IMG/VR virus record: IMGVR_UViG_2778261641_000015
Location: 1 to 6,579 of that record
Source: a virus
Lineage: Duplodnaviria > Heunggongvirae > Uroviricota > Caudoviricetes
Direction: 5' to 3' (one strand)
Length of the DNA stretch: 6,579 nucleotides
Shown here: in pieces, positions 1 through 6,189 of the stretch
Position numbering within the stretch: position 1 is the stretch's first letter
Layout of the letters: every line of letters begins with the position of its first letter
The notes under the pieces: model-generated
Seen by the model: only the letters and a program-made list of their open reading frames with translations
Told to the model about the DNA's origin: nothing
Database searches by the model: none
Program-made: the position numbers and the translations under genes

Positions 1-898
<898 letters not shown>

Positions 899-1459: not shown

Positions 1460-1482
1460 AACGCTTCACTCGAGGCGTTTTT
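1460..1482 (+). terminator. Hairpin plus U-run in the cIII leader (terminator-like or translational-control structure)
   Basis: AACGCTTC(1460-1467)-actc-GAGGCGTT(1472-1479), 8 bp with one G-U wobble, running into TTTTT (1478-1482), 27 nt before the cIII ATG. The lambda cIII leader is known to form regulatory RNA structures. Confidence 0.4.
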
Positions 1483-1508
1483 CGTTATGTATAAATAAGG
1501 AGCACACC

Positions 1509-1649
1509 ATGCAATATGCCATTGCAGGGTGGCCTGTTGCTGGCTGCCCTTCCGAATCTTTACTTGAACGAATCACCCGTAAATTACGTGACGGATGGAA
1601 ACGCCTTATCGACATACTTAATCAGCCAGGAGTACCCAAAAATGGATAA
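1509..1649 (+). CDS. cIII: CIII (FtsH/HflB protease inhibitor), apparently C-terminally truncated variant, 46 aa
   Basis: [46 protein letters not shown] then TAA at 1647-1649. Matches the first 46 residues of the 54-aa lambda CIII as I recall it. Strong SD AAGGAG 8 nt upstream of the ATG at 1509. The track ORF starting at 1437 is an upstream in-frame extension with no RBS. Confidence 0.85.
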   Translation: MQYAIAGWPVAGCPSESLLERITRKLRDGWKRLIDILNQPGVPKNG

Positions 1650-1785
1650 AAAACTTATGGCTATCCAGACAAAATTCACTATTGCCACTTTTATTGGCGA
1701 TGAAAAGATGTTTCGTGAGGCCGTCGACGCTTATAAAAAATGGATATTAATACTGAAACTGAGATCAAGCAAAAGCATTCACTAA
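1642..1785 (+). CDS. kil: Kil (host cell-division inhibitor, 47 aa)
   Basis: [47 protein letters not shown] matches lambda Kil except residues 3-4 (KK here, QT in my recollection of lambda). Start overlaps the cIII stop; 3' end overlaps the gam start by 46 nt, as in lambda. Confidence 0.85.
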
Positions 1786-2156
1786 CCCCCTTTCCTGTTT
1801 TCCTAATCAGCCCGGCATTTCGCGGGCGATATTTTCACAGCTATTTCAGGAGTTCGGCCATGAACGCTTATTACATTCAGGATCGTCTTGAGGCTCAGAG
1901 CTGGGCGCGTCACTACCAGCAGATAGCCCGTGAAGAGAAAGAGGCAGAACTGGCAGACGACATGGAAAAAGGCCTGCCCCAGCACCTGTTTGAATCGCTA
2001 TGCATCGATCATTTGCAACGCCACGGGGCCAGCAAAAAAGCCATTACCCGTGCGTTTGATGACGATGTTGAGTTTCAGGAGCGCATGGCAGAACACATCC
2101 GGTACATGGTTGAAACCATTGCTCACCATCAGGTTGATATTGATTCAGAGGTATAA
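1740..2156 (+). CDS. gam: Gam (RecBCD inhibitor), 138-aa long form; the short GamS form would start at the internal ATG at 1860
   Basis: [61 protein letters not shown]... is near-identical to lambda Gam from memory. Internal ATG at 1860 is preceded by CAGGAG. Confidence 0.95.
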
Positions 2157-2161
2157 AACGG

Positions 2162-2947
2162 ATGAGTACAGCACTCGCAACGCTGGCAGGGAAGCTGGCT
2201 GAACGTGTCGGCATGGATTCTGTCGACCCACAGGAACTGATCACCACTCTTCGCCAGACGGCATTTAAAGGCGATGCCAGCGATGCGCAGTTCATCGCAT
2301 TGTTGATCGTCGCCAACCAGTACGGCCTTAATCCGTGGACGAAAGAAATTTACGCCTTCCCTGACAAGCAGAACGGCATCGTTCCGGTGGTGGGCGTTGA
2401 TGGCTGGTCCCGTATCATCAATGAAAACCAGCAGTTTGATGGCATGGACTTTGAGCAGGACAATGAATCATGTACATGCCGGATTTACCGCAAGGACCGT
2501 AATCATCCGATCTGCGTTACCGAGTGGATGGATGAATGCCGCCGCGAACCATTCAAAACCCGCGAAGGCAGAGAAATCACCGGACCGTGGCAGTCGCATC
2601 CCAAACGGATGTTACGGCATAAAGCCATGATTCAGTGTGCCCGTCTGGCCTTCGGATTTGCTGGTATCTATGACAAGGATGAAGCCGAGCGCATTGTCGA
2701 AAATACCGCATACACTGCAGAACGTCAGCCGGAACGCGACATCACTCCGGTTAACGATGAAACCATGCAGGAGATTAACACTATGCTGATTGCCCTGGAC
2801 AAAACATGGGATGACGACTTATTGCCGCTCTGTTCCCAGATATTTCGCCGCGACATTCGCGCATCGTCAGAACTGACACAGGCCGAAGCAATGAAAGCTC
2901 TTGGATTCCTGAAACAGAAAGCCTCTGAACAGAAGGTGGCTGCATGA
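2162..2947 (+). CDS. bet: Bet (Red-beta single-strand annealing protein, 261 aa)
   Basis: [66 protein letters not shown]... is near-identical to lambda Bet from memory. Stop overlaps the exo start (ATGA at 2944-2947). Confidence 0.97.
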
Positions 2948-3624
2948 CACCGGACATTATCCTGCAGCGTACCGGGATCGACGTGAGAGCTGTCGAACAG
3001 GGGGATGATGCATGGCACAAATTACGGCTCGGCGTCATCACCGCTTCAGAAGTTCACAACGTGATAGCAAAGCCCCGCTCAGGAAAGAAGTGGCCTGACA
3101 TGAAAATGTCCTACTTCCACACCCTGCTGGCTGAGGTTTGCACCGGTGTGGCTCCGGAAGTTAACGCTAAGGCGCTGGCCTGGGGAAAACAGTACGAGAA
3201 CGACGCCAGAACCCTCTTTGAGTTCACTTCCGGCGTTAATGTTACTGAATCCCCGATCATCTATCGCGACGAAAGTATGCGCACCGCCTGCTCTCCCGAT
3301 GGTTTATGCAGTGACGGCAACGGCCTTGAACTGAAATGCCCGTTTACCTCCCGGGATTTCATGAAGTTCCGGCTCGGTGGTTTCGAGGCCATAAAATCGG
3401 CTTACATGGCCCAGGTGCAGTACAGCATGTGGGTGACGCGAAAAGATGCCTGGTACTTTGCCAACTATGACCCACGAATGAAGCGTGAAGGCCTGCATTA
3501 TGTCGTGGTTGAGCGGGATGAAAATTACATGGCGAGTTTTGACGAGATGGTGCCGGAGTTCATCGAAAAAATGGACGAGGCACTGGCTGAAATTGGTTTT
3601 GTATTTGGGGAGCAATGGCGATGA
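2944..3624 (+). CDS. exo: Lambda exonuclease (Red-alpha, 226 aa)
   Basis: [65 protein letters not shown]... is near-identical to lambda Exo from memory. Confidence 0.97.
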
Positions 3625-3803
3625 CGCATCCTCACGATAATATCCGGGTAGGCGCGATCACTTTCGTCTACTCCATTACAAAGCGAGGCTGGGTATTTCC
3701 CGGCCTTTCTGTTATCAGAAATCCCCTGAAAGCACAGCGGCTGGCTGAGGAGATAAATAATAAACGGGGAGCTGTATGCACAAAGCATCTCCCGTTGAGT
3801 TAA
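3621..3803 (+). CDS. orf60a: Lambda orf60a homologue (60 aa, function unknown)
   Basis: [60 protein letters not shown] matches lambda orf60a from memory. Start chosen at the ATG at 3621, which overlaps the exo stop (ATGA); the track start at 3615 adds two residues. Confidence 0.85.
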
Positions 3804-3967
3804 GAACGAGTATCGAGATGGCACATAGCCTCGCTCAAATTGGAGTCAGGTTTGTGCCAATACCAGTAGAAACAGACGAAGAATTTCATACGTTAGCCGC
3901 ATCCCTTTCACAAAAGCTGGAAATGATGGTGGCGAAAGCAGAAGCAGATGAGAGAGACCAGGTATGA
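3776..3967 (+). CDS. orf63: Lambda orf63 homologue (63 aa, function unknown)
   Basis: [63 protein letters not shown] matches lambda orf63 from memory; overlaps orf60a by 28 nt. Confidence 0.85.
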   Translation: MHKASPVELRTSIEMAHSLAQIGVRFVPIPVETDEEFHTLAASLSQKLEMMVAKAEADERDQV

Positions 3968-4047
3968 CAACCACTGAATGCATTTTTCTGGCAGCGGGCT
4001 TCATATTCTGTGTGCTTATGCTTGCCGACATGGGGCTTGTTCAATGA
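3964..4047 (+). CDS. Candidate 27-aa hydrophobic micro-protein (MTTTECIFLAAGFIFCVLMLADMGLVQ), single predicted transmembrane helix
   Basis: ATG at 3964 overlaps the orf63 stop (ATGA 3964-3967) and its TGA overlaps the ATG of the next ORF (ATGA 4044-4047). Below the length cutoff of the supplied ORF track; translated by hand. Confidence 0.4.
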   Translation: MTTTECIFLAAGFIFCVLMLADMGLVQ

Positions 4048-4259
4048 CACCTCAGCAAGAAAACGCCCTTCGCAGCATTGCCCGTCAGGCTAATTCTGAA
4101 ATCAAAAAAGCCAGACAGCAGTTTCCGGATAAAAACGTCGATGACATTTGCCGTAGCGTACTAAAGAAGCACCGCGAAACGGTAACGCTGATGGGATTCA
4201 CACCGACTCATTTAAGCCTGGCGATCGGCATGTTGAACGGCGTCTTTAAGGAACGGTGA
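4044..4259 (+). CDS. Hypothetical 71-aa basic protein at the lambda orf61 position (MTPQQENALRSIARQANSEIKKARQQFPDKNVDD...)
   Basis: ORF in the track from 3978; start preferred at the ATG at 4044 because of the ATGA coupling to the upstream micro-ORF and because the N-terminal extension looks non-protein-like. I could not confirm from memory that it equals lambda orf61. Confidence 0.55.
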   Translation: MTPQQENALRSIARQANSEIKKARQQFPDKNVDDICRSVLKKHRETVTLMGFTPTHLSLAIGMLNGVFKER

Positions 4260-4280
4260 ACATGAAAAGCAAAATCATCA

Positions 4281-4302
4281 GGGAGCTACAGGCTCCTTTT
4301 TT
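4281..4302 (+). terminator. Intrinsic terminator-like hairpin (GGGAGC-tacag-GCTCC) plus T6
   Basis: 5-6 bp GC-rich stem at 4281-4286/4292-4296 followed directly by TTTTTT (4297-4302), between the 71-aa ORF and orf73. Confidence 0.6.
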
Positions 4303-4357
4303 ATTATTCGCATTCACCCTCAAGCGTATTAACCAACAATTCAGGGATTAATGAAAG

Positions 4358-4579
4358 ATGGCAGACATCATTGATTCAGCATCAGAAATTGAAGAATTAC
4401 AGCGCAACACAGCAATAAAAATGCGCCGCCTGAACCACCAGGCTATATCTGCCACTCATTGTTGTGAGTGTGGCGATCCGATAGATGAACGAAGACGCTT
4501 GGCCGTTCAGGGTTGTCGGACTTGTGCAAGTTGCCAGGAGGATCTGGAACTTATCAGTAAACAGAGAGGTTCGAAGTGA
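4358..4579 (+). CDS. orf73: TraR/DksA-family C4 zinc-finger protein (lambda Orf73-like, 73 aa)
   Basis: CxxC-x17-CxxC motif (CCECGDPIDERRRLAVQGCRTCASC) after an N-terminal helical region, the architecture of TraR/DksA family members. Length and position match lambda orf73. Confidence 0.85.
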   Translation: MADIIDSASEIEELQRNTAIKMRRLNHQAISATHCCECGDPIDERRRLAVQGCRTCASCQEDLELISKQRGSK

Positions 4580-5124
4580 GCGAAATTAACTCTCAGGCAC
4601 TGCGTGAGGCGGCAGTAGCAATTGAAACAGTAGCAACACCTCAAAAATTGCTGGCATTTCGTATGAAAGTCACACCTCAGGTTGTGCTGGCTCTACTGGA
4701 TGAACGAGATGCATTAAATGAACGCCTAGCCGAACTGGAGGCTGATTTAGCAGGGCTGGCCGAAGACCACCAGAAAGCGACTGAGTCAATTAAGCAGGCT
4801 GATGCAGCTGTTAAGTTGGCACACGAGAAGTTTTCGGCGCTGGCGGCGGAGAATGAGCTGGCTCGTAAAGCAGTTCAGGAATTCTGCGATGTTGTTGGCG
4901 ACAGCACCGAGGTTATCTGCGAGGAGATTGGGAGAGATGGTGTTCTGGTTATTTTGGAGGCCATGAAGGCAACAGGAAATATGCCAGCCACCGATGCTTT
5001 CCTGGCTGAAGTACGGGCGCAGGGGGTGGAGATGATGCGCGAACATCCATCAATCAAACTTTGCTCTTTGACGCACATATGTGATGAGTTAGCCGCCCAG
5101 CTTCGCAAAGGAGGCAACCAGTGA
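4576..5124 (+). CDS. ea22: Ea22-like protein (182 aa), lambda-like N-terminus with divergent central and C-terminal parts
   Basis: GTG start overlapping the orf73 stop (GTGA 4576-4579). N-terminus MSEINSQALREAA matches lambda Ea22 as recalled and length is the same; the remainder (LDERDALNERLAELEADLAGLAEDHQ... coiled-coil-like) differs. Confidence 0.8.
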   Translation: MSEINSQALREAAVAIETVATPQKLLAFRMKVTPQVVLALLDERDALNERLAELEADLAGLAEDHQKATESIKQADAAVKLAHEKFSALAAENELARKAVQEFCDVVGDSTEVICEEIGRDGVLVILEAMKATGNMPATDAFLAEVRAQGVEMMREHPSIKLCSLTHICDELAAQLRKGGNQ

Positions 5125-5217
5125 CTGGACATGCAGCAATCCTCGACATGTGCTGTGGCAGTCGCATGTTCTGGTTAGATAAGAATGACGAACGGGCGAG
5201 ATAAGCGATCGGTTAAG

Positions 5218-5226
5218 TGCTATAGT
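5218..5226 (+). promoter_or_regulatory. Weak candidate extended -10 element (TGcTATAGT) upstream of the secreted-protein gene
   Basis: TG at 5218-5219 and TATAGT at 5221-5226, about 29 nt upstream of the ATG at 5255; no convincing -35. Motif match only. Confidence 0.2.
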
Positions 5227-5254
5227 AATGCGCTTTTGTATTTATGGAGTGAAT

Positions 5255-5953
5255 ATGAAAAATATCCTACTGGCATCATTGTTAGTGGCATCGCCGGGTG
5301 CATTTGCAGCCAGCTTTGACTGCCAAAAGGCTTCGACAGCAATCGAACATAAAATCTGCGATAACGAACGTCTGTCAAAATTAGACGAACAGCTTAGCTC
5401 TGCCTATTCTAGTGCCCTCAAAGGAAACCCAGAGAACGCAGACACCCTAAAAATGGTTCAACGTCAGTGGGTAAATATGCGTGGAAAACTCACTGATAAT
5501 AAGGCTCTGGAGCTGGCTTATCTTATCCAAATTAATGGCCTCAAAGGTTTGGGGAGTTCAGTCAGCGTAACAGCGGCCAATGACATACCCACGTCGGCGC
5601 AGAAACATTCTAAAGAGCAGGAAGATACAAGTAAGGCAGAAGCTAAGTCGGTCAAGAACGGCAATAAGCTAACCTTAGAGTCATTCCGAGCTAAATATGT
5701 AGAAGTAGATGGTGAGTATTACAGCACGACATCCATTCCTAGAGGCAGTTCGTTCTTGTTCACTTGCGCTAGTCGTATTGCTGATGACCAAGTGAATATT
5801 TGGAAGAAACAGGCAGCCAAAGAGGGCAAAATCGACCTATTCTTTGAGGTTGAGAATCACTTACACACGGCTATGTTGAACGCCAATTTTCAGAAGTTGA
5901 ATTCAGACCCTGCCAAAAGAGGTATTTGTAATCTGATTAACGCAGTGCCGTAA
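5255..5953 (+). CDS. Secreted (periplasmic) hypothetical protein, 232 aa: Sec signal peptide, DUF1311/LprI-like N-terminal domain, C-terminal region of unknown function
   Basis: ATG at 5255 with GGAG 5 nt upstream (the track start at 5228 lacks an RBS). MKNILLASLLVASPGAFA|AS is a classic signal peptide with an AxA cleavage site. The mature N-terminus FDCQKASTAIEHKICDNERLSKLDEQLSSAYSSAL...QRQWVNMRG resembles the DUF1311 motif from memory. Sits where lambda has ea8.5. Confidence 0.75.
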   Translation: MKNILLASLLVASPGAFAASFDCQKASTAIEHKICDNERLSKLDEQLSSAYSSALKGNPENADTLKMVQRQWVNMRGKLTDNKALELAYLIQINGLKGLGSSVSVTAANDIPTSAQKHSKEQEDTSKAEAKSVKNGNKLTLESFRAKYVEVDGEYYSTTSIPRGSSFLFTCASRIADDQVNIWKKQAAKEGKIDLFFEVENHLHTAMLNANFQKLNSDPAKRGICNLINAVP

Positions 5954-5963
5954 GTAAATTTAG

Positions 5964-5993
5964 GGCCACAGTTGTGGCCTTAAATATTTTTTT
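5964..5993 (+). terminator. Terminator-like hairpin (GGCCAC-agtt-GTGGCC) followed by an AT-rich tract ending in T7
   Basis: Perfect 6-bp stem at 5964-5969/5974-5979, 10 nt after the stop of the secreted-protein gene; the T-run (5987-5993) is 7 nt from the stem, which is not ideal. Confidence 0.45.
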
Positions 5994-6122
5994 CAGCCTT
6001 TTCTTATTTGTAATAAGCAGTACTTGGTAGTGCTTATAAAACAGAATAAAAAATATATGACTTTGGCGATTACCCAGTAAAGATATTCGAAATAAATGTA
6101 AATATCGACAATGAATAACTAT

Positions 6123-6147
6123 CCTCGCACTCGCGGGGATTTCTTTT
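6123..6147 (+). terminator. Terminator-like hairpin (CCTCGC-actc-GCGGGG) followed by a T-rich tract
   Basis: 6-bp stem with one mismatch at 6123-6128/6133-6138, then ATTTCTTTTAT. Confidence 0.4.
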
Positions 6148-6152
6148 ATCTG

Positions 6153-6177
6153 AACTCGCTACGGCGAGTTTTTTTTA
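6153..6177 (+). terminator. Strong intrinsic terminator (AACTCGC-tacg-GCGAGTT, then T8)
   Basis: 7-bp stem at 6153-6159/6164-6170 running into TTTTTTTT (6169-6176), immediately upstream of the RBS of the 55-aa ORF. Confidence 0.7.
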
Positions 6178-6189
6178 TGGAGATGATAA

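What the first reader, a model, noticed from the sequence alone, without database searches (positions are those of the whole stretch)
5218..5993. Secreted DUF1311-like protein replacing ea8.5: candidate lysogenic-conversion cargo next to the integration module
Where lambda has ea8.5 there is a 232-aa protein with an unambiguous Sec signal peptide (MKNILLASLLVASPGAFA|AS). Its mature N-terminus (FDCQKASTAIEHKICDNERLSKLDEQLSSAYSSAL...QRQWVNMRG) resembles the DUF1311 fold found in LprI-type lysozyme inhibitors and the E. coli YecT family, but appears to lack the final cysteine I would expect. The roughly 120-aa C-terminal part I do not recognise. Codon composition is patchy and it is followed by an AT-rich spacer. 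A periplasmic, possibly lysozyme-binding protein from a prophage could affect envelope stress, resistance to host or phage muramidases, or exclusion at the cell envelope.
Basis: partly seen in the sequence, partly recalled or inferred. Interest (0 to 1): 0.65.

Follow-up and report, generated by a model that had tools for sequence, protein, structure and literature searches.

The report
Secreted two-domain phage accessory protein
This is a real, self-contained accessory gene cassette in a lambda-like E. coli prophage that encodes a small protein exported to the periplasm; public databases already label it "LprI-family lysozyme inhibitor", that name is not justified by the evidence, and its function is still untested.

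Summary
Window 5255-5953 (+) encodes a 232-aa protein with a canonical Sec signal peptide (AFA|ASFDC). It has a short DUF1311/LprI-like N-domain: Pfam PF07007 scores 25.2 bits against a cutoff of 22, but only model positions 1-70 of 106 match and the second cysteine pair is deleted. A roughly 40-aa linker evolves almost neutrally. The roughly 95-aa C-domain is strongly constrained, models confidently (pLDDT 89) and has no relative among solved structures.

The gene sits exactly where lambda has ea8.5. It is a moron-like cassette (5186-5993) with a conserved TGnTATAGT extended -10 and its own terminator. The same cassette occurs in SSU5-type phage-plasmids.

The gene is not new to databases. 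RefSeq calls it "lysozyme inhibitor LprI family protein" in phage ev099 and 107 complete E. coli genomes, and it belongs to PHROG 4675 (function unknown). Full-length homologues occur in virulent T4-like Aeromonas and Klebsiella phages. Another lies in a Yersinia island beside Lamassu defence genes.

The "host lysozyme inhibitor" reading is weak. M. tuberculosis LprI also carries an MliC domain that is absent here, and the LprI-domain protein ScwA gives no lysozyme resistance. My best guess (about 40%) is a periplasmic binder that neutralises incoming cell-wall hydrolases, acting in superinfection exclusion or like a T6SS immunity protein. Interest is moderate.

The parts
5186..5993 (+). Mobile cassette shared with SSU5-type phage-plasmids: about 70 nt of leader and promoter region, the CDS, and the terminator
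   Evidence: megablast hit to SSU5 over query 87-894, 83% identity. Pairwise and 6-way alignments show homology beginning near 5186 and ending just after the hairpin.
5218..5226 (+). Putative extended -10 promoter element, TGcTATAGT (inferred, no expression data)
   Evidence: TG and TATAGT are invariant in all 6 copies, while the 'n' position varies (C/A/T). The generic -35/-10 scan did not flag it.
5246..5249 (+). Shine-Dalgarno GGAG, 5 nt before the ATG
   Evidence: Read directly from the sequence. It is invariant in all copies.
5255..5953 (+). CDS of 232 aa plus stop; PHROG 4675 member; RefSeq name 'lysozyme inhibitor LprI family protein'
   Evidence: purifying selection
5255..5308 (+). Sec signal peptide, residues 1-18 (MKNILLASLLVASPGAFA), with predicted SPase I cleavage AFA|AS
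   Evidence: Hydrophobicity, the -3/-1 rule and absence of a lipobox. The junction is conserved across the family.
5312..5548 (+). N-domain, residues 20-98: a minimal DUF1311/LprI-like helical domain with Cys23 and Cys35, lacking the Cys3-Cys4 loop
   Evidence: Pfam PF07007 at 25.2/28.2 bits covering model 1-70 of 106. Alignment with YecT. dN/dS 0.08-0.21.
5549..5665 (+). Linker, residues 99-137: low-complexity, carries indels, predicted disordered
   Evidence: Indels and variability in the alignment. pLDDT 23-32. dN/dS 0.71-0.82.
5666..5950 (+). C-domain, residues 138-232: beta-hairpin plus three helices, invariant Cys171 and Cys225, orphan fold
5958..5993 (+). Intrinsic terminator: 12-bp stem, 4-nt loop, followed by a U7 run
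   Evidence: Terminator scan. RNA fold -17.6 kcal/mol, z = -4.2. The GGCCAC/GTGGCC stem is conserved in SSU5-type copies.
5994..6114 (.). AT-rich spacer with no match to lambda, HK022 or SSU5, lying between the cassette and the lambda-homologous tL4/orf55 segment
   Evidence: blastn against lambda resumes at 6115 and against HK022 at 6060. GC 33.5% over 5954-6189.

Best explanation
Shown:
- The gene is a genuine, selectively maintained accessory ('moron'-type) cassette. It lies between the ea22-like gene and orf55/xis of a lambda-like E. coli prophage identical to phage ev099.
- It encodes a 232-aa precursor with a Sec-type signal peptide.
- The predicted mature protein (about 214 aa) has two small, mostly helical domains, each with one conserved cysteine pair, joined by a flexible, nearly neutrally evolving ~40-aa linker.
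- The N-domain is a cut-down DUF1311/LprI-like domain. The C-domain is a rare fold restricted to phages and mobile elements.

Inferred:
- The precursor is exported by Sec and cleaved after Ala18.
- The cysteine pairs (Cys23-Cys35 and Cys171-Cys225) are oxidised in the periplasm.
- The gene is transcribed from its own extended -10 promoter in the lysogen, and by N-antiterminated pL read-through after induction.
- The protein has no catalytic motif, so it probably works by stoichiometric binding in the periplasm.
- The most likely target is a peptidoglycan-cleaving enzyme delivered from outside. That could be the tail-associated muralytic enzyme of a superinfecting phage, giving a role like T4 Spackle without homology to it. 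It could also be a lysozyme-, pesticin- or transglycosylase-type T6SS effector, giving an orphan-immunity role.
- On this reading the protein protects the cell that carries the phage or element.
For: Real, constrained gene.

Export: signal peptide and conserved cleavage junction. Lipobox-bearing variants P0060 and P0062 carry the same C-domain. Conserved cysteine pairs. ScwA, another LprI-domain protein, is experimentally periplasmic and DsbA-dependent (PMC7933661).

DUF1311 relationship.

Cassette autonomy: terminator; conserved TGnTATAGT; low GC; absence from lambda and HK022; the same cassette in a different element type, the SSU5-like IncFIB phage-plasmids.

Role serving the phage or element rather than host virulence: full-length homologues in virulent T4-like Aeromonas and Klebsiella phages between primase gene 61 and gene 56. 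The Yersinia homologue sits on a serine-recombinase island together with Lamassu (LmuA/B/C) and PDC-S71 defence genes. The P0062 variant lies next to an integrase and AlpA genes.

Precedent for a phage periplasmic lysozyme inhibitor giving superinfection exclusion: T4 Spackle (PMC7677548).
Against: - No experiment or binding partner exists for this family. PHROG 4675 is 'unknown function' and there is no PADLOC hit.
- The Pfam match is barely above threshold and covers only two-thirds of the domain, without the second disulfide. Properties of full DUF1311 immunity proteins may therefore not transfer.
- No effector gene lies next to it in any context examined.
- ScwA shows that an LprI domain can act on endogenous PG enzymes instead, with no lysozyme phenotype.
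- There is no sequence or fold similarity to Spackle.
- Klebsiella T4-like phages carry both Spackle and this protein, so the two are not simple substitutes.
- The most conserved part is the C-domain, whose function is wholly unknown.
- The promoter is only a conserved motif, and the standard scan did not call it.
Confidence: 0.4

Rival explanations
1. Superinfection exclusion or envelope defence by a mechanism unrelated to PG hydrolases. The conserved C-domain would bind a host envelope component (an outer-membrane receptor, a periplasmic chaperone, or an inner-membrane channel used for DNA entry), or a phage tail-tip protein. The mini-DUF1311 domain plus linker would serve only as a stable periplasmic scaffold or tether.
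For: The C-domain is the most constrained part (dN/dS 0.05-0.08). It is reused with a different, lipoprotein-type N-terminus in P0060 and P0062. The N-terminal module recurs with other C-termini in PHROGs 14799, 33858 and 4895 and in RB49-like phages. This modularity suggests that specificity resides in the C-domain. The defence-island and mobile-element contexts also fit, as does presence in virulent phages.
Against: No known exclusion protein resembles it in sequence or fold. No partner has been identified. The N-domain is itself under purifying selection (0.08-0.21), so it is more than a passive spacer.
Confidence: 0.2
2. ScwA-like modulator of the cell's own peptidoglycan hydrolases. The protein would alter the levels or activity of endogenous lytic transglycosylases, amidases or endopeptidases. 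This could tune envelope homeostasis in the lysogen or prepare the sacculus for phage replication or lysis.
For: ScwA, a periplasmic, disulfide-stabilised protein with only an LprI domain, controls MltD and other PG hydrolase levels, and its overproduction causes lysis (PMC7933661). The protein here is periplasmic, with a related domain and conserved cysteines.
Against: ScwA is 275 aa with the LprI domain at its C-terminus (residues 185-271) and four conserved cysteines. No homology beyond the Pfam domain was seen here. The architecture is different and the domain is truncated. It is unclear why virulent T4-like phages and defence islands would share such a regulator.
Confidence: 0.15
3. One reading: a lysogenic-conversion factor that inhibits animal (c-type) lysozyme and so raises host-associated fitness or virulence of the lysogen.
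For: The family name, and the Pfam match above threshold. RefSeq annotation. Many carrier strains are from animals or patients, with poultry, pig and human sources.
Confidence: 0.1
4. Functionless hitch-hiker or decaying remnant of a DUF1311 gene.
For: The domain is truncated. Truncated or disrupted copies exist in databases (P0042, P0063, P0064).
Against: There is strong purifying selection on both domains across elements that have diverged to dS above 1. Architecture is conserved from lambdoid prophages to T4-like phages. The gene is intact in 107 complete E. coli genomes.
Confidence: 0.03

Closest known systems
Pfam PF07007 (LprI / DUF1311) periplasmic proteins such as E. coli YecT
   Same: Sec signal peptide. 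N-terminal Cys-x11-Cys motif, the 'LD..L...Y' helix and the 'QR.W...R' helix. The score is above the Pfam gathering threshold.
   Different: Only model positions 1-70 of 106 align. The Cys3...Cys4 loop (about 25 aa) is missing. A linker and an unrelated 95-aa C-domain follow.
[not shown]
   Same: Small periplasmic proteins with a signal peptide and a DUF1311 domain. They can occur as 'orphans' on mobile or variable regions, and they antagonise peptidoglycan-hydrolase toxins.
   Different: Those are single-domain proteins (SED_RS06230, the only one whose length was seen here, is 146 aa), usually next to a cognate effector. This one has two domains, is 232 aa, is phage-borne and has no effector neighbour. 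Cross-homology beyond the Pfam level was not tested.
M. tuberculosis LprI (Rv1541c), the lysozyme-inhibitor lipoprotein that gives the family its name
   Same: It shares the DUF1311/LprI domain and is extracytoplasmic.
   Different: LprI is a lipoprotein and carries an MliC domain (PF09864) (PMC7933661). Here there is no lipobox and no MliC hit even at E <= 10.
Salmonella ScwA (SL1344_0490)
   Same: A horizontally acquired, low-GC, periplasmic, disulfide-stabilised LprI-domain protein of Enterobacteriaceae.
   Different: In ScwA the domain is C-terminal and complete and there are four conserved cysteines. ScwA is chromosomal rather than phage-borne, and its role is regulating MltD and other endogenous PG hydrolases.
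T4 Spackle (gp61.3)
   Same: A phage-encoded, Sec-exported small periplasmic protein made by a phage. Homologues of the present protein lie in the same early region of T4-like genomes, near genes 41, 61 and 56. Spackle's mechanism is stoichiometric inhibition of the gp5 tail lysozyme (PMC7677548).
Lambdoid 'morons' (for example bor, lom, and cor-type exclusion genes)
   Same: An extra gene with its own terminator and a probable promoter. It has a different GC content and is inserted between conserved genes. It encodes an envelope protein.
   Different: It sits in the ea8.5 slot of the pL operon rather than in the late or tail region. Expression in the lysogen has not been shown.

Membership tests
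Pfam PF07007 LprI/DUF1311 | Whole-protein score at or above the curated gathering score (22 bits) | tested here: met
   25.2 bits, E = 2.2e-5. The N-domain alone scores 28.2 bits.
Pfam PF07007 LprI/DUF1311 | Match over the whole domain model (about 106 positions), as in YecT | tested here: not met
   Only model positions 1-70 are matched. YecT matches 1-106 at 64.8 bits. Homologues P0055, P0061 and the Klebsiella phage protein also stop at positions 70-75.
Pfam PF07007 LprI/DUF1311 | Two conserved cysteine pairs within the domain | tested here: not met
   Cys23 and Cys35 align with YecT C35 and C52. The loop holding YecT C109 and C133 is deleted. The other two cysteines (171 and 225) lie in the unrelated C-domain.
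Pfam PF07007 LprI/DUF1311 | Extracytoplasmic location (signal peptide) | tested here: met
   n/h/c regions, the AFA|AS cleavage site, and conservation across the family. This rests on sequence inspection only; no SignalP run and no fractionation.
LprI-type lysozyme inhibitor (M. tuberculosis LprI) | MliC lysozyme-inhibitor domain (PF09864) accompanying the LprI domain | tested here: not met
   The Pfam scan at E <= 10 returns PF07007 only. LprI architecture is taken from PMC7933661.
LprI-type lysozyme inhibitor (M. tuberculosis LprI) | Lipoprotein (lipobox cysteine) | tested here: not met
   No [LVI][ASTVI][GAS]C motif in the first 40 residues.
LprI-type lysozyme inhibitor (M. tuberculosis LprI) | Inhibits lysozyme activity | not testable with these tools
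   This needs purified protein and a turbidimetric or fluorogenic lysozyme assay.
T6SS immunity protein of DUF1311 type | Encoded next to a cognate peptidoglycan-hydrolase effector (bicistronic pair) | tested here: not met
   Neighbours are ea22-like/orf55/xis, HD-domain protein/ydfZ, primase/denV/gene 56, and recombinases plus Lamassu. At most it would be an 'orphan'.
T6SS immunity protein of DUF1311 type | Protects against a periplasm-acting effector | not testable with these tools
   This needs co-expression rescue or competition assays.
T4 Spackle family | Sequence or fold homology to Spackle | tested here: not met
   [not shown]
PHROG 4675 (phage protein family, unknown function) | Full-length profile match | tested here: met
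   E = 3.5e-94, residues 1-231 against profile 1-234 of 235. The same family is hit by 44RR2.8t ORF027c (4.7e-85), the Klebsiella phage protein (4.8e-57), Yersinia P0061 (2.2e-33) and the C-domain of P0062 (1.7e-12).
Moron (autonomous accessory cassette in a phage genome) | Own intrinsic terminator immediately downstream | tested here: met
   Hairpin 5958-5985 plus U7, -17.6 kcal/mol, z = -4.2. The stem is conserved in other copies.
Moron (autonomous accessory cassette in a phage genome) | Own promoter immediately upstream | tested here: inconclusive
   TGnTATAGT (5218-5226) is invariant in 6 copies with the n position variable. The -35 is weak, the consensus scan did not call it, and there are no transcript data.
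Moron (autonomous accessory cassette in a phage genome) | Present or absent between conserved flanking genes in related phages, with deviant base composition | tested here: met
   Lambda homology breaks at 4620 and resumes at 6115, and HK022 homology resumes at 6060. GC is 44% against 51-53% in neighbouring genes. The same cassette occurs in SSU5-type phage-plasmids.

The most novel reading that the evidence does not exclude
PHROG 4675 proteins could be a previously unrecognised, widespread class of phage- and mobile-element-encoded periplasmic protection factors. They would be shared by temperate lambdoids, SSU5-type phage-plasmids, virulent T4-like phages and small defence islands. In this reading the orphan-fold C-domain, tethered by a flexible linker to a minimal DUF1311 module, captures and neutralises the muralytic tip or effector of incoming phages or T6SS attacks. 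That would make it a functional analogue of T4 Spackle with an unrelated structure.
Probability: 0.25. Interest if true: 0.65.

Novelty: new variant of a known kind. Interest (0 to 1): 0.4.

Why it matters
If the protein blocks incoming cell-wall hydrolases or otherwise excludes phages at the envelope, it would add a new structural class to the very few known periplasmic exclusion factors (T4 Spackle being the one cited here).

It would also explain why the same cassette moves between unrelated temperate elements and is kept by virulent phages.

Independently of function, the result is a caution about annotation. The RefSeq name "lysozyme inhibitor LprI family protein" is propagated from a mycobacterial protein that also carries a separate MliC lysozyme-inhibitor domain, which this protein lacks. 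The only tested LprI-domain-only enterobacterial protein has no lysozyme phenotype. About 2% of complete E. coli genomes (107 of 5426) and many IncFIB phage-plasmids of Enterobacter, Citrobacter and E. coli (and the Salmonella phage SSU5) carry the gene.

Tried and rejected
- Full-length AF2 model with a shallow alignment was poor (pLDDT 53). Its Foldseek search of PDB was non-significant, with the DUF1311 structure 3gi7 only at E = 4.4. The N-domain fold was therefore not confirmed structurally.
- PDB sequence searches with the protein and with a family profile found nothing relevant.
- The AFDB50 Foldseek library was unavailable.
- PADLOC gave no hit for the protein.
- NCBIfam gave only sub-threshold noise: CpoB, A1S_1983, mevalonate kinase.
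- No similarity to Spackle.
- Spackle homologues were detected in 407 phage records with no Aeromonas among the top genera. This hints weakly at complementary distribution, but Klebsiella phages have both proteins, so I did not rely on it.
- The 69-aa membrane-protein genes immediately upstream of the Yersinia and P0062 homologues are not homologous to each other. I dropped the idea of a conserved two-gene module.
- An APEC CRISPR spacer annotated as targeting 'lysozyme inhibitor LprI' does not match this window.
- PMC10288061 has no LprI mention in its main text.
- The original LprI paper (PMC4742756) is not held, so LprI's domain architecture is cited second-hand from PMC7933661.
- Rfam found no RNA element in or near the gene.
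- A single-sequence phmmer search of 1.84 billion representatives with the C-domain found only 10 hits. This understates the family, because the T4-like members are visible only at profile or structure level.
Full report
**1. What is in the sequence**

The finding's span (5218-5993) contains one long forward ORF. Translation from ATG 5255 gives 232 aa and a stop at 5951-5953. GGAG lies at 5246-5249, five nucleotides before the ATG.

Gene callers often choose the upstream ATG at 5228, giving 241 aa (cluster P0001, 318 member sequences). That codon is AGG in all five SSU5-type copies, whereas the GGAG-N5-ATG arrangement is invariant. So 5255 is the true start.

The N-terminus has the classic tripartite signal-peptide layout:
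- n-region: Lys2.
- h-region: an 11-residue hydrophobic core.
- c-region: Pro14-Gly15, then Ala16-Phe17-Ala18 at positions -3 to -1.

There is no lipobox. The mature N-terminus ASFDC is conserved through the whole family, including T4-like phage homologues.

I could not run SignalP, so export is an inference from sequence. It is supported by three observations:
- The cysteine pairs are conserved.
- Two homologues (P0060, P0062) replace the signal peptide with a lipoprotein signal, LTGC.
- The LprI-domain protein ScwA is experimentally periplasmic and depends on DsbA (PMC7933661).

**2. Domain anatomy**

*N-domain.* Pfam finds a single family, PF07007 (LprI, formerly DUF1311), at 25.2 bits. The curated cutoff is 22 bits and E = 2.2e-5. 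The match covers residues 23-78 against model positions 1-70 of 106. The isolated N-domain scores 28.2 bits.

E. coli YecT, a canonical member, matches positions 1-106 at 64.8 bits. Aligned with YecT, the window protein keeps Cys1, Cys2, the 'LD..L...Y' helix and the 'QR.W...R' helix. It lacks the roughly 25-residue loop that carries YecT Cys109 and Cys133 and goes straight into a final helix. The same truncation is seen in every homologue tested.

*Linker.* Residues 99-137 are low-complexity, carry indels and are predicted disordered, with pLDDT 23-32.

*C-domain.* Residues 138-232 form a separate domain. With a more diverse alignment, AlphaFold gives pLDDT 89.4 and pTM 0.80. The model is a beta-hairpin followed by three helices. 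Cys171 and Cys225 are invariant.

*Selection.* Nei-Gojobori dN/dS against five other copies:

| Region | dN/dS |
|---|---|
| N-domain | 0.08-0.21 |
| Linker | 0.71-0.82 |
| C-domain | 0.05-0.08 |

This pattern is two constrained domains joined by a nearly neutral tether. It rules out a chance ORF or a decaying remnant.

**3. What the C-domain is not**

- It has no Pfam hit.
- It has no PDB sequence hit, even with a family profile.
- In the viral structure library, the only significant matches are uncharacterised proteins of T4-like Aeromonas phages: TM 0.79-0.81 for the top two and 0.68 for the third, E from 1e-4 to 4e-2.
- A phmmer scan of 1.84 billion representative proteins with the C-domain found 10 hits. 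This undercounts, because the T4-like members are visible only at profile or structure level.
- AFDB50 was not available.

**4. Genomic setting**

The window is a lambda-like early-left operon. Homology to lambda runs from 1472 to 4620 at 97% identity. It breaks inside the ea22-like gene and resumes at 6115, thirteen nucleotides past the end of lambda ea8.5.

The 1.1 kb around the gene is 100% identical to Escherichia phage ev099 (gp35). It is present at 80% coverage or more in 107 of 5426 complete E. coli genomes, and all 25 listed top hits are 100% identical. RefSeq names it 'lysozyme inhibitor LprI family protein' there. This is not an unannotated gene. PHROGs places it in family 4675, function unknown, with a full-length match at E = 3.5e-94.

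**5. A mobile cassette**

The only other phage record with nucleotide-level similarity across the gene is Salmonella phage-plasmid SSU5. It matches at 83% identity over window positions 5186-5993 and nothing more.

In the plasmid database, 126 records match at least 80% of the protein. The full-length hits listed are mostly IncFIB, non-mobilizable plasmids of about 110 kb from Enterobacter, Citrobacter and E. coli. In the four examined, the local gene order matches SSU5.

The shared block has four parts:
- About 70 nt of upstream sequence.
- The CDS.
- A 12-bp GC-rich hairpin.
- In the window, a U7 run after the hairpin. The fold energy is -17.6 kcal/mol, z = -4.2.

Upstream, all six copies keep TGnTATAGT (window 5218-5226) with the 'n' position variable (C, A or T). 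That is the pattern expected of an extended -10 promoter. The -35 is poor and the generic scan did not call it, so the promoter is an inference.

The gene's GC content is 44%, against 51-53% for bet, exo and the ea22-like gene. Taken together, this is a moron-type cassette exchanged between a lambdoid prophage and a phage-plasmid lineage. Because it is co-oriented with pL, it should also be transcribed by N-antiterminated read-through after induction. That follows from established lambda biology and was not tested here.

**6. Homologues in other lifestyles**

tblastn finds 154 phage records, 54 of them covering at least 80% of the protein. Apart from ev099 and SSU5, the listed hits are large T4-like genomes:
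- Aeromonas phages such as 44RR2.8t, 31, 25 and Aes508 have full-length homologues at 27-31% identity.
- Klebsiella phages show 77% coverage by BLAST.
- RB49-like coliphages share only the N-half.

44RR2.8t ORF027c has the same signal peptide junction, the same N-domain motifs, a linker and the C-domain motifs, including both cysteines. It and the Klebsiella protein match PHROG 4675 end to end. In these virulent phages the gene lies between primase gene 61 (and denV in 44RR2.8t) and the gene 56 pyrophosphatase. From memory, that is the region where T4 carries sp (61.3) and dmd.

In Yersinia enterocolitica, a 30%-identical homologue (P0061) lies at the end of a small island bounded by two serine recombinases. 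The island also carries Lamassu (LmuA/B/C) and the candidate defence gene PDC-S71. The homologue is preceded by a small lipoprotein gene and a small membrane-protein gene.

A variant that keeps only the C-domain behind a lipoprotein signal (P0062) lies in an element with a tyrosine integrase and AlpA genes.

The gene family therefore travels with phages and integrative elements of every lifestyle. This argues against a purely lysogenic-conversion or virulence role.

**7. What the literature says about the domain**

Evidence that weakens the 'lysozyme inhibitor' name:
- The name comes from M. tuberculosis LprI, which also contains an MliC lysozyme-inhibitor domain. ScwA and the present protein lack it (PMC7933661).
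- ScwA, the only LprI-domain-only enterobacterial protein studied, is periplasmic, needs DsbA, alters the levels of MltD and other PG hydrolases, and has no lysozyme-resistance phenotype.

Evidence that DUF1311 proteins antagonise peptidoglycan hydrolases:
- Sec-exported DUF1311-only proteins recur as immunity proteins for peptidoglycan-hydrolase T6SS effectors.
- Etsi4 rescues periplasmic Etse4 toxicity in E. coli (PMC12981562).
- Psi15 pairs with the pesticin-domain effector Pse15 (bioRxiv 10.64898/2026.08.01.741415).
- LprI-domain orphan immunities occur in Pantoea (PMC9796082).
- There is a predicted pair in S. Dublin (PMC8867033).

T4 Spackle shows that a phage can use a small periplasmic protein to inhibit the tail lysozyme of superinfecting phage (PMC7677548). 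The present protein has no similarity to Spackle.

**8. Most likely mechanism and rivals**

I take the following as shown:
- A real, selected gene.
- A two-domain architecture with a neutral linker.
- A partial DUF1311 relationship.
- An orphan C-domain.
- Cassette mobility.
- A distribution that crosses phage lifestyles.

I take the following as inferred:
- Sec export and cleavage after Ala18.
- Two disulfides.
- Autonomous transcription.
- Action by binding rather than catalysis.

The best-supported function (about 0.4) is neutralisation of externally delivered peptidoglycan hydrolases in the periplasm. That covers superinfection exclusion or protection from lysis-from-without, and/or orphan T6SS immunity.

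| Rival explanation | Confidence |
|---|---|
| Exclusion through a non-hydrolase target recognised by the C-domain | 0.2 |
| ScwA-like modulation of endogenous hydrolases | 0.15 |
| Animal-lysozyme inhibition, as first proposed | 0.1 |
| No function | 0.03 |

The main weaknesses are these:
- The Pfam match is marginal and partial.
- No effector or partner is linked to the gene.
- The best-conserved domain is uncharacterised.
- There are no expression data.

**9. Verdict**

The gene is already catalogued (RefSeq name, PHROG 4675), but it is functionally uncharacterised and its database name is probably misleading.

Relative to known DUF1311 proteins it is a new architectural variant: a minimal DUF1311 domain, a linker and an orphan domain, carried on phage cassettes.

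Interest is moderate (0.4). It is a tractable candidate for a new periplasmic exclusion or immunity factor, but nothing here is very surprising to a specialist, and the mechanism is conjectural.

Noticed in passing
window 317-820 (-): A 167-aa ORF on the opposite strand to the pL operon, between N and the DUF2528 gene. It has a C-terminal CxxC...CxxC motif and matches PHROG 1244 (E = 4.6e-53, unknown function), with no Pfam or PADLOC hit. The ev099 RefSeq record instead annotates an 88-aa + strand ORF (window 365-631) that matches no PHROG, which is probably a mis-call. An oppositely oriented accessory gene in this position may be another moron or exclusion gene.
   Followed up: partly
window 1496-1554 (+): Rfam RF01804, the lambda cIII thermoregulator RNA element: 88.5 bits, E = 3e-21, full length.
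   Followed up: no
L003 486-6576 and 9236-11437 (Yersinia enterocolitica GCA_046034595.1): The Yersinia homologue P0061 sits on a small island bounded by two serine recombinases. The island carries a Lamassu system (LmuA/B/C hits: LmuB 3e-92, LmuA 6e-26, LmuC 1.8e-5, weak) and PDC-S71 (1.7e-140). It also has a divergent cI-like HTH gene followed by a 101-aa lipoprotein gene and a 69-aa membrane-protein gene upstream of P0061.
   Followed up: partly
window 5186-5310 versus 5666-5950: There is a steep gradient of synonymous divergence between the lambdoid and SSU5-type copies. The leader and signal-peptide region is nearly identical (dS 0.07-0.14; all but one or two of the 39 nt (5216-5254) before the ATG are identical in all six copies), whereas dS exceeds 1 in the C-domain. 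This reflects either a recent recombination breakpoint inside the gene or nucleotide-level constraint on the 5' end (promoter, leader, translation initiation).
   Followed up: partly
window 5228 (alternative ATG): Public gene calls frequently start the protein 9 codons too early (241 aa; cluster P0001 with 318 members). This buries the signal peptide and could make signal-peptide predictors miss it. The ATG is not conserved in SSU5-type copies.
   Followed up: yes
P0060 and P0062 (L015 8001-8729): In these variants the C-domain is fused, through a Pro/Thr-rich linker, to a different N-terminal region with a lipoprotein signal (LTGC). P0062 is in an integrase/AlpA element, flanked by a 69-aa two-TM protein and a TM2-domain protein. 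This shows that the C-domain is an independent module.
   Followed up: partly
window 4621-6114: Relative to lambda, the whole block from codon ~16 of the ea22-like gene to just past ea8.5 is replaced. The ea22-like allele here shares only its first ~45 nt with lambda ea22. Two further terminator-like hairpins (6121-6140, 6152-6171) lie in the segment homologous to the HK022 'tL4 terminator'.
   Followed up: no
P0042, P0063, P0064 (database homologues): Natural variants exist. P0042 has an in-frame deletion that removes the end of the N-domain and the first part of the linker. P0063 is an E. coli copy truncated after the N-domain. P0064 is a chimera that keeps only the C-domain helices. They could serve as natural domain-deletion controls.
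   Followed up: no
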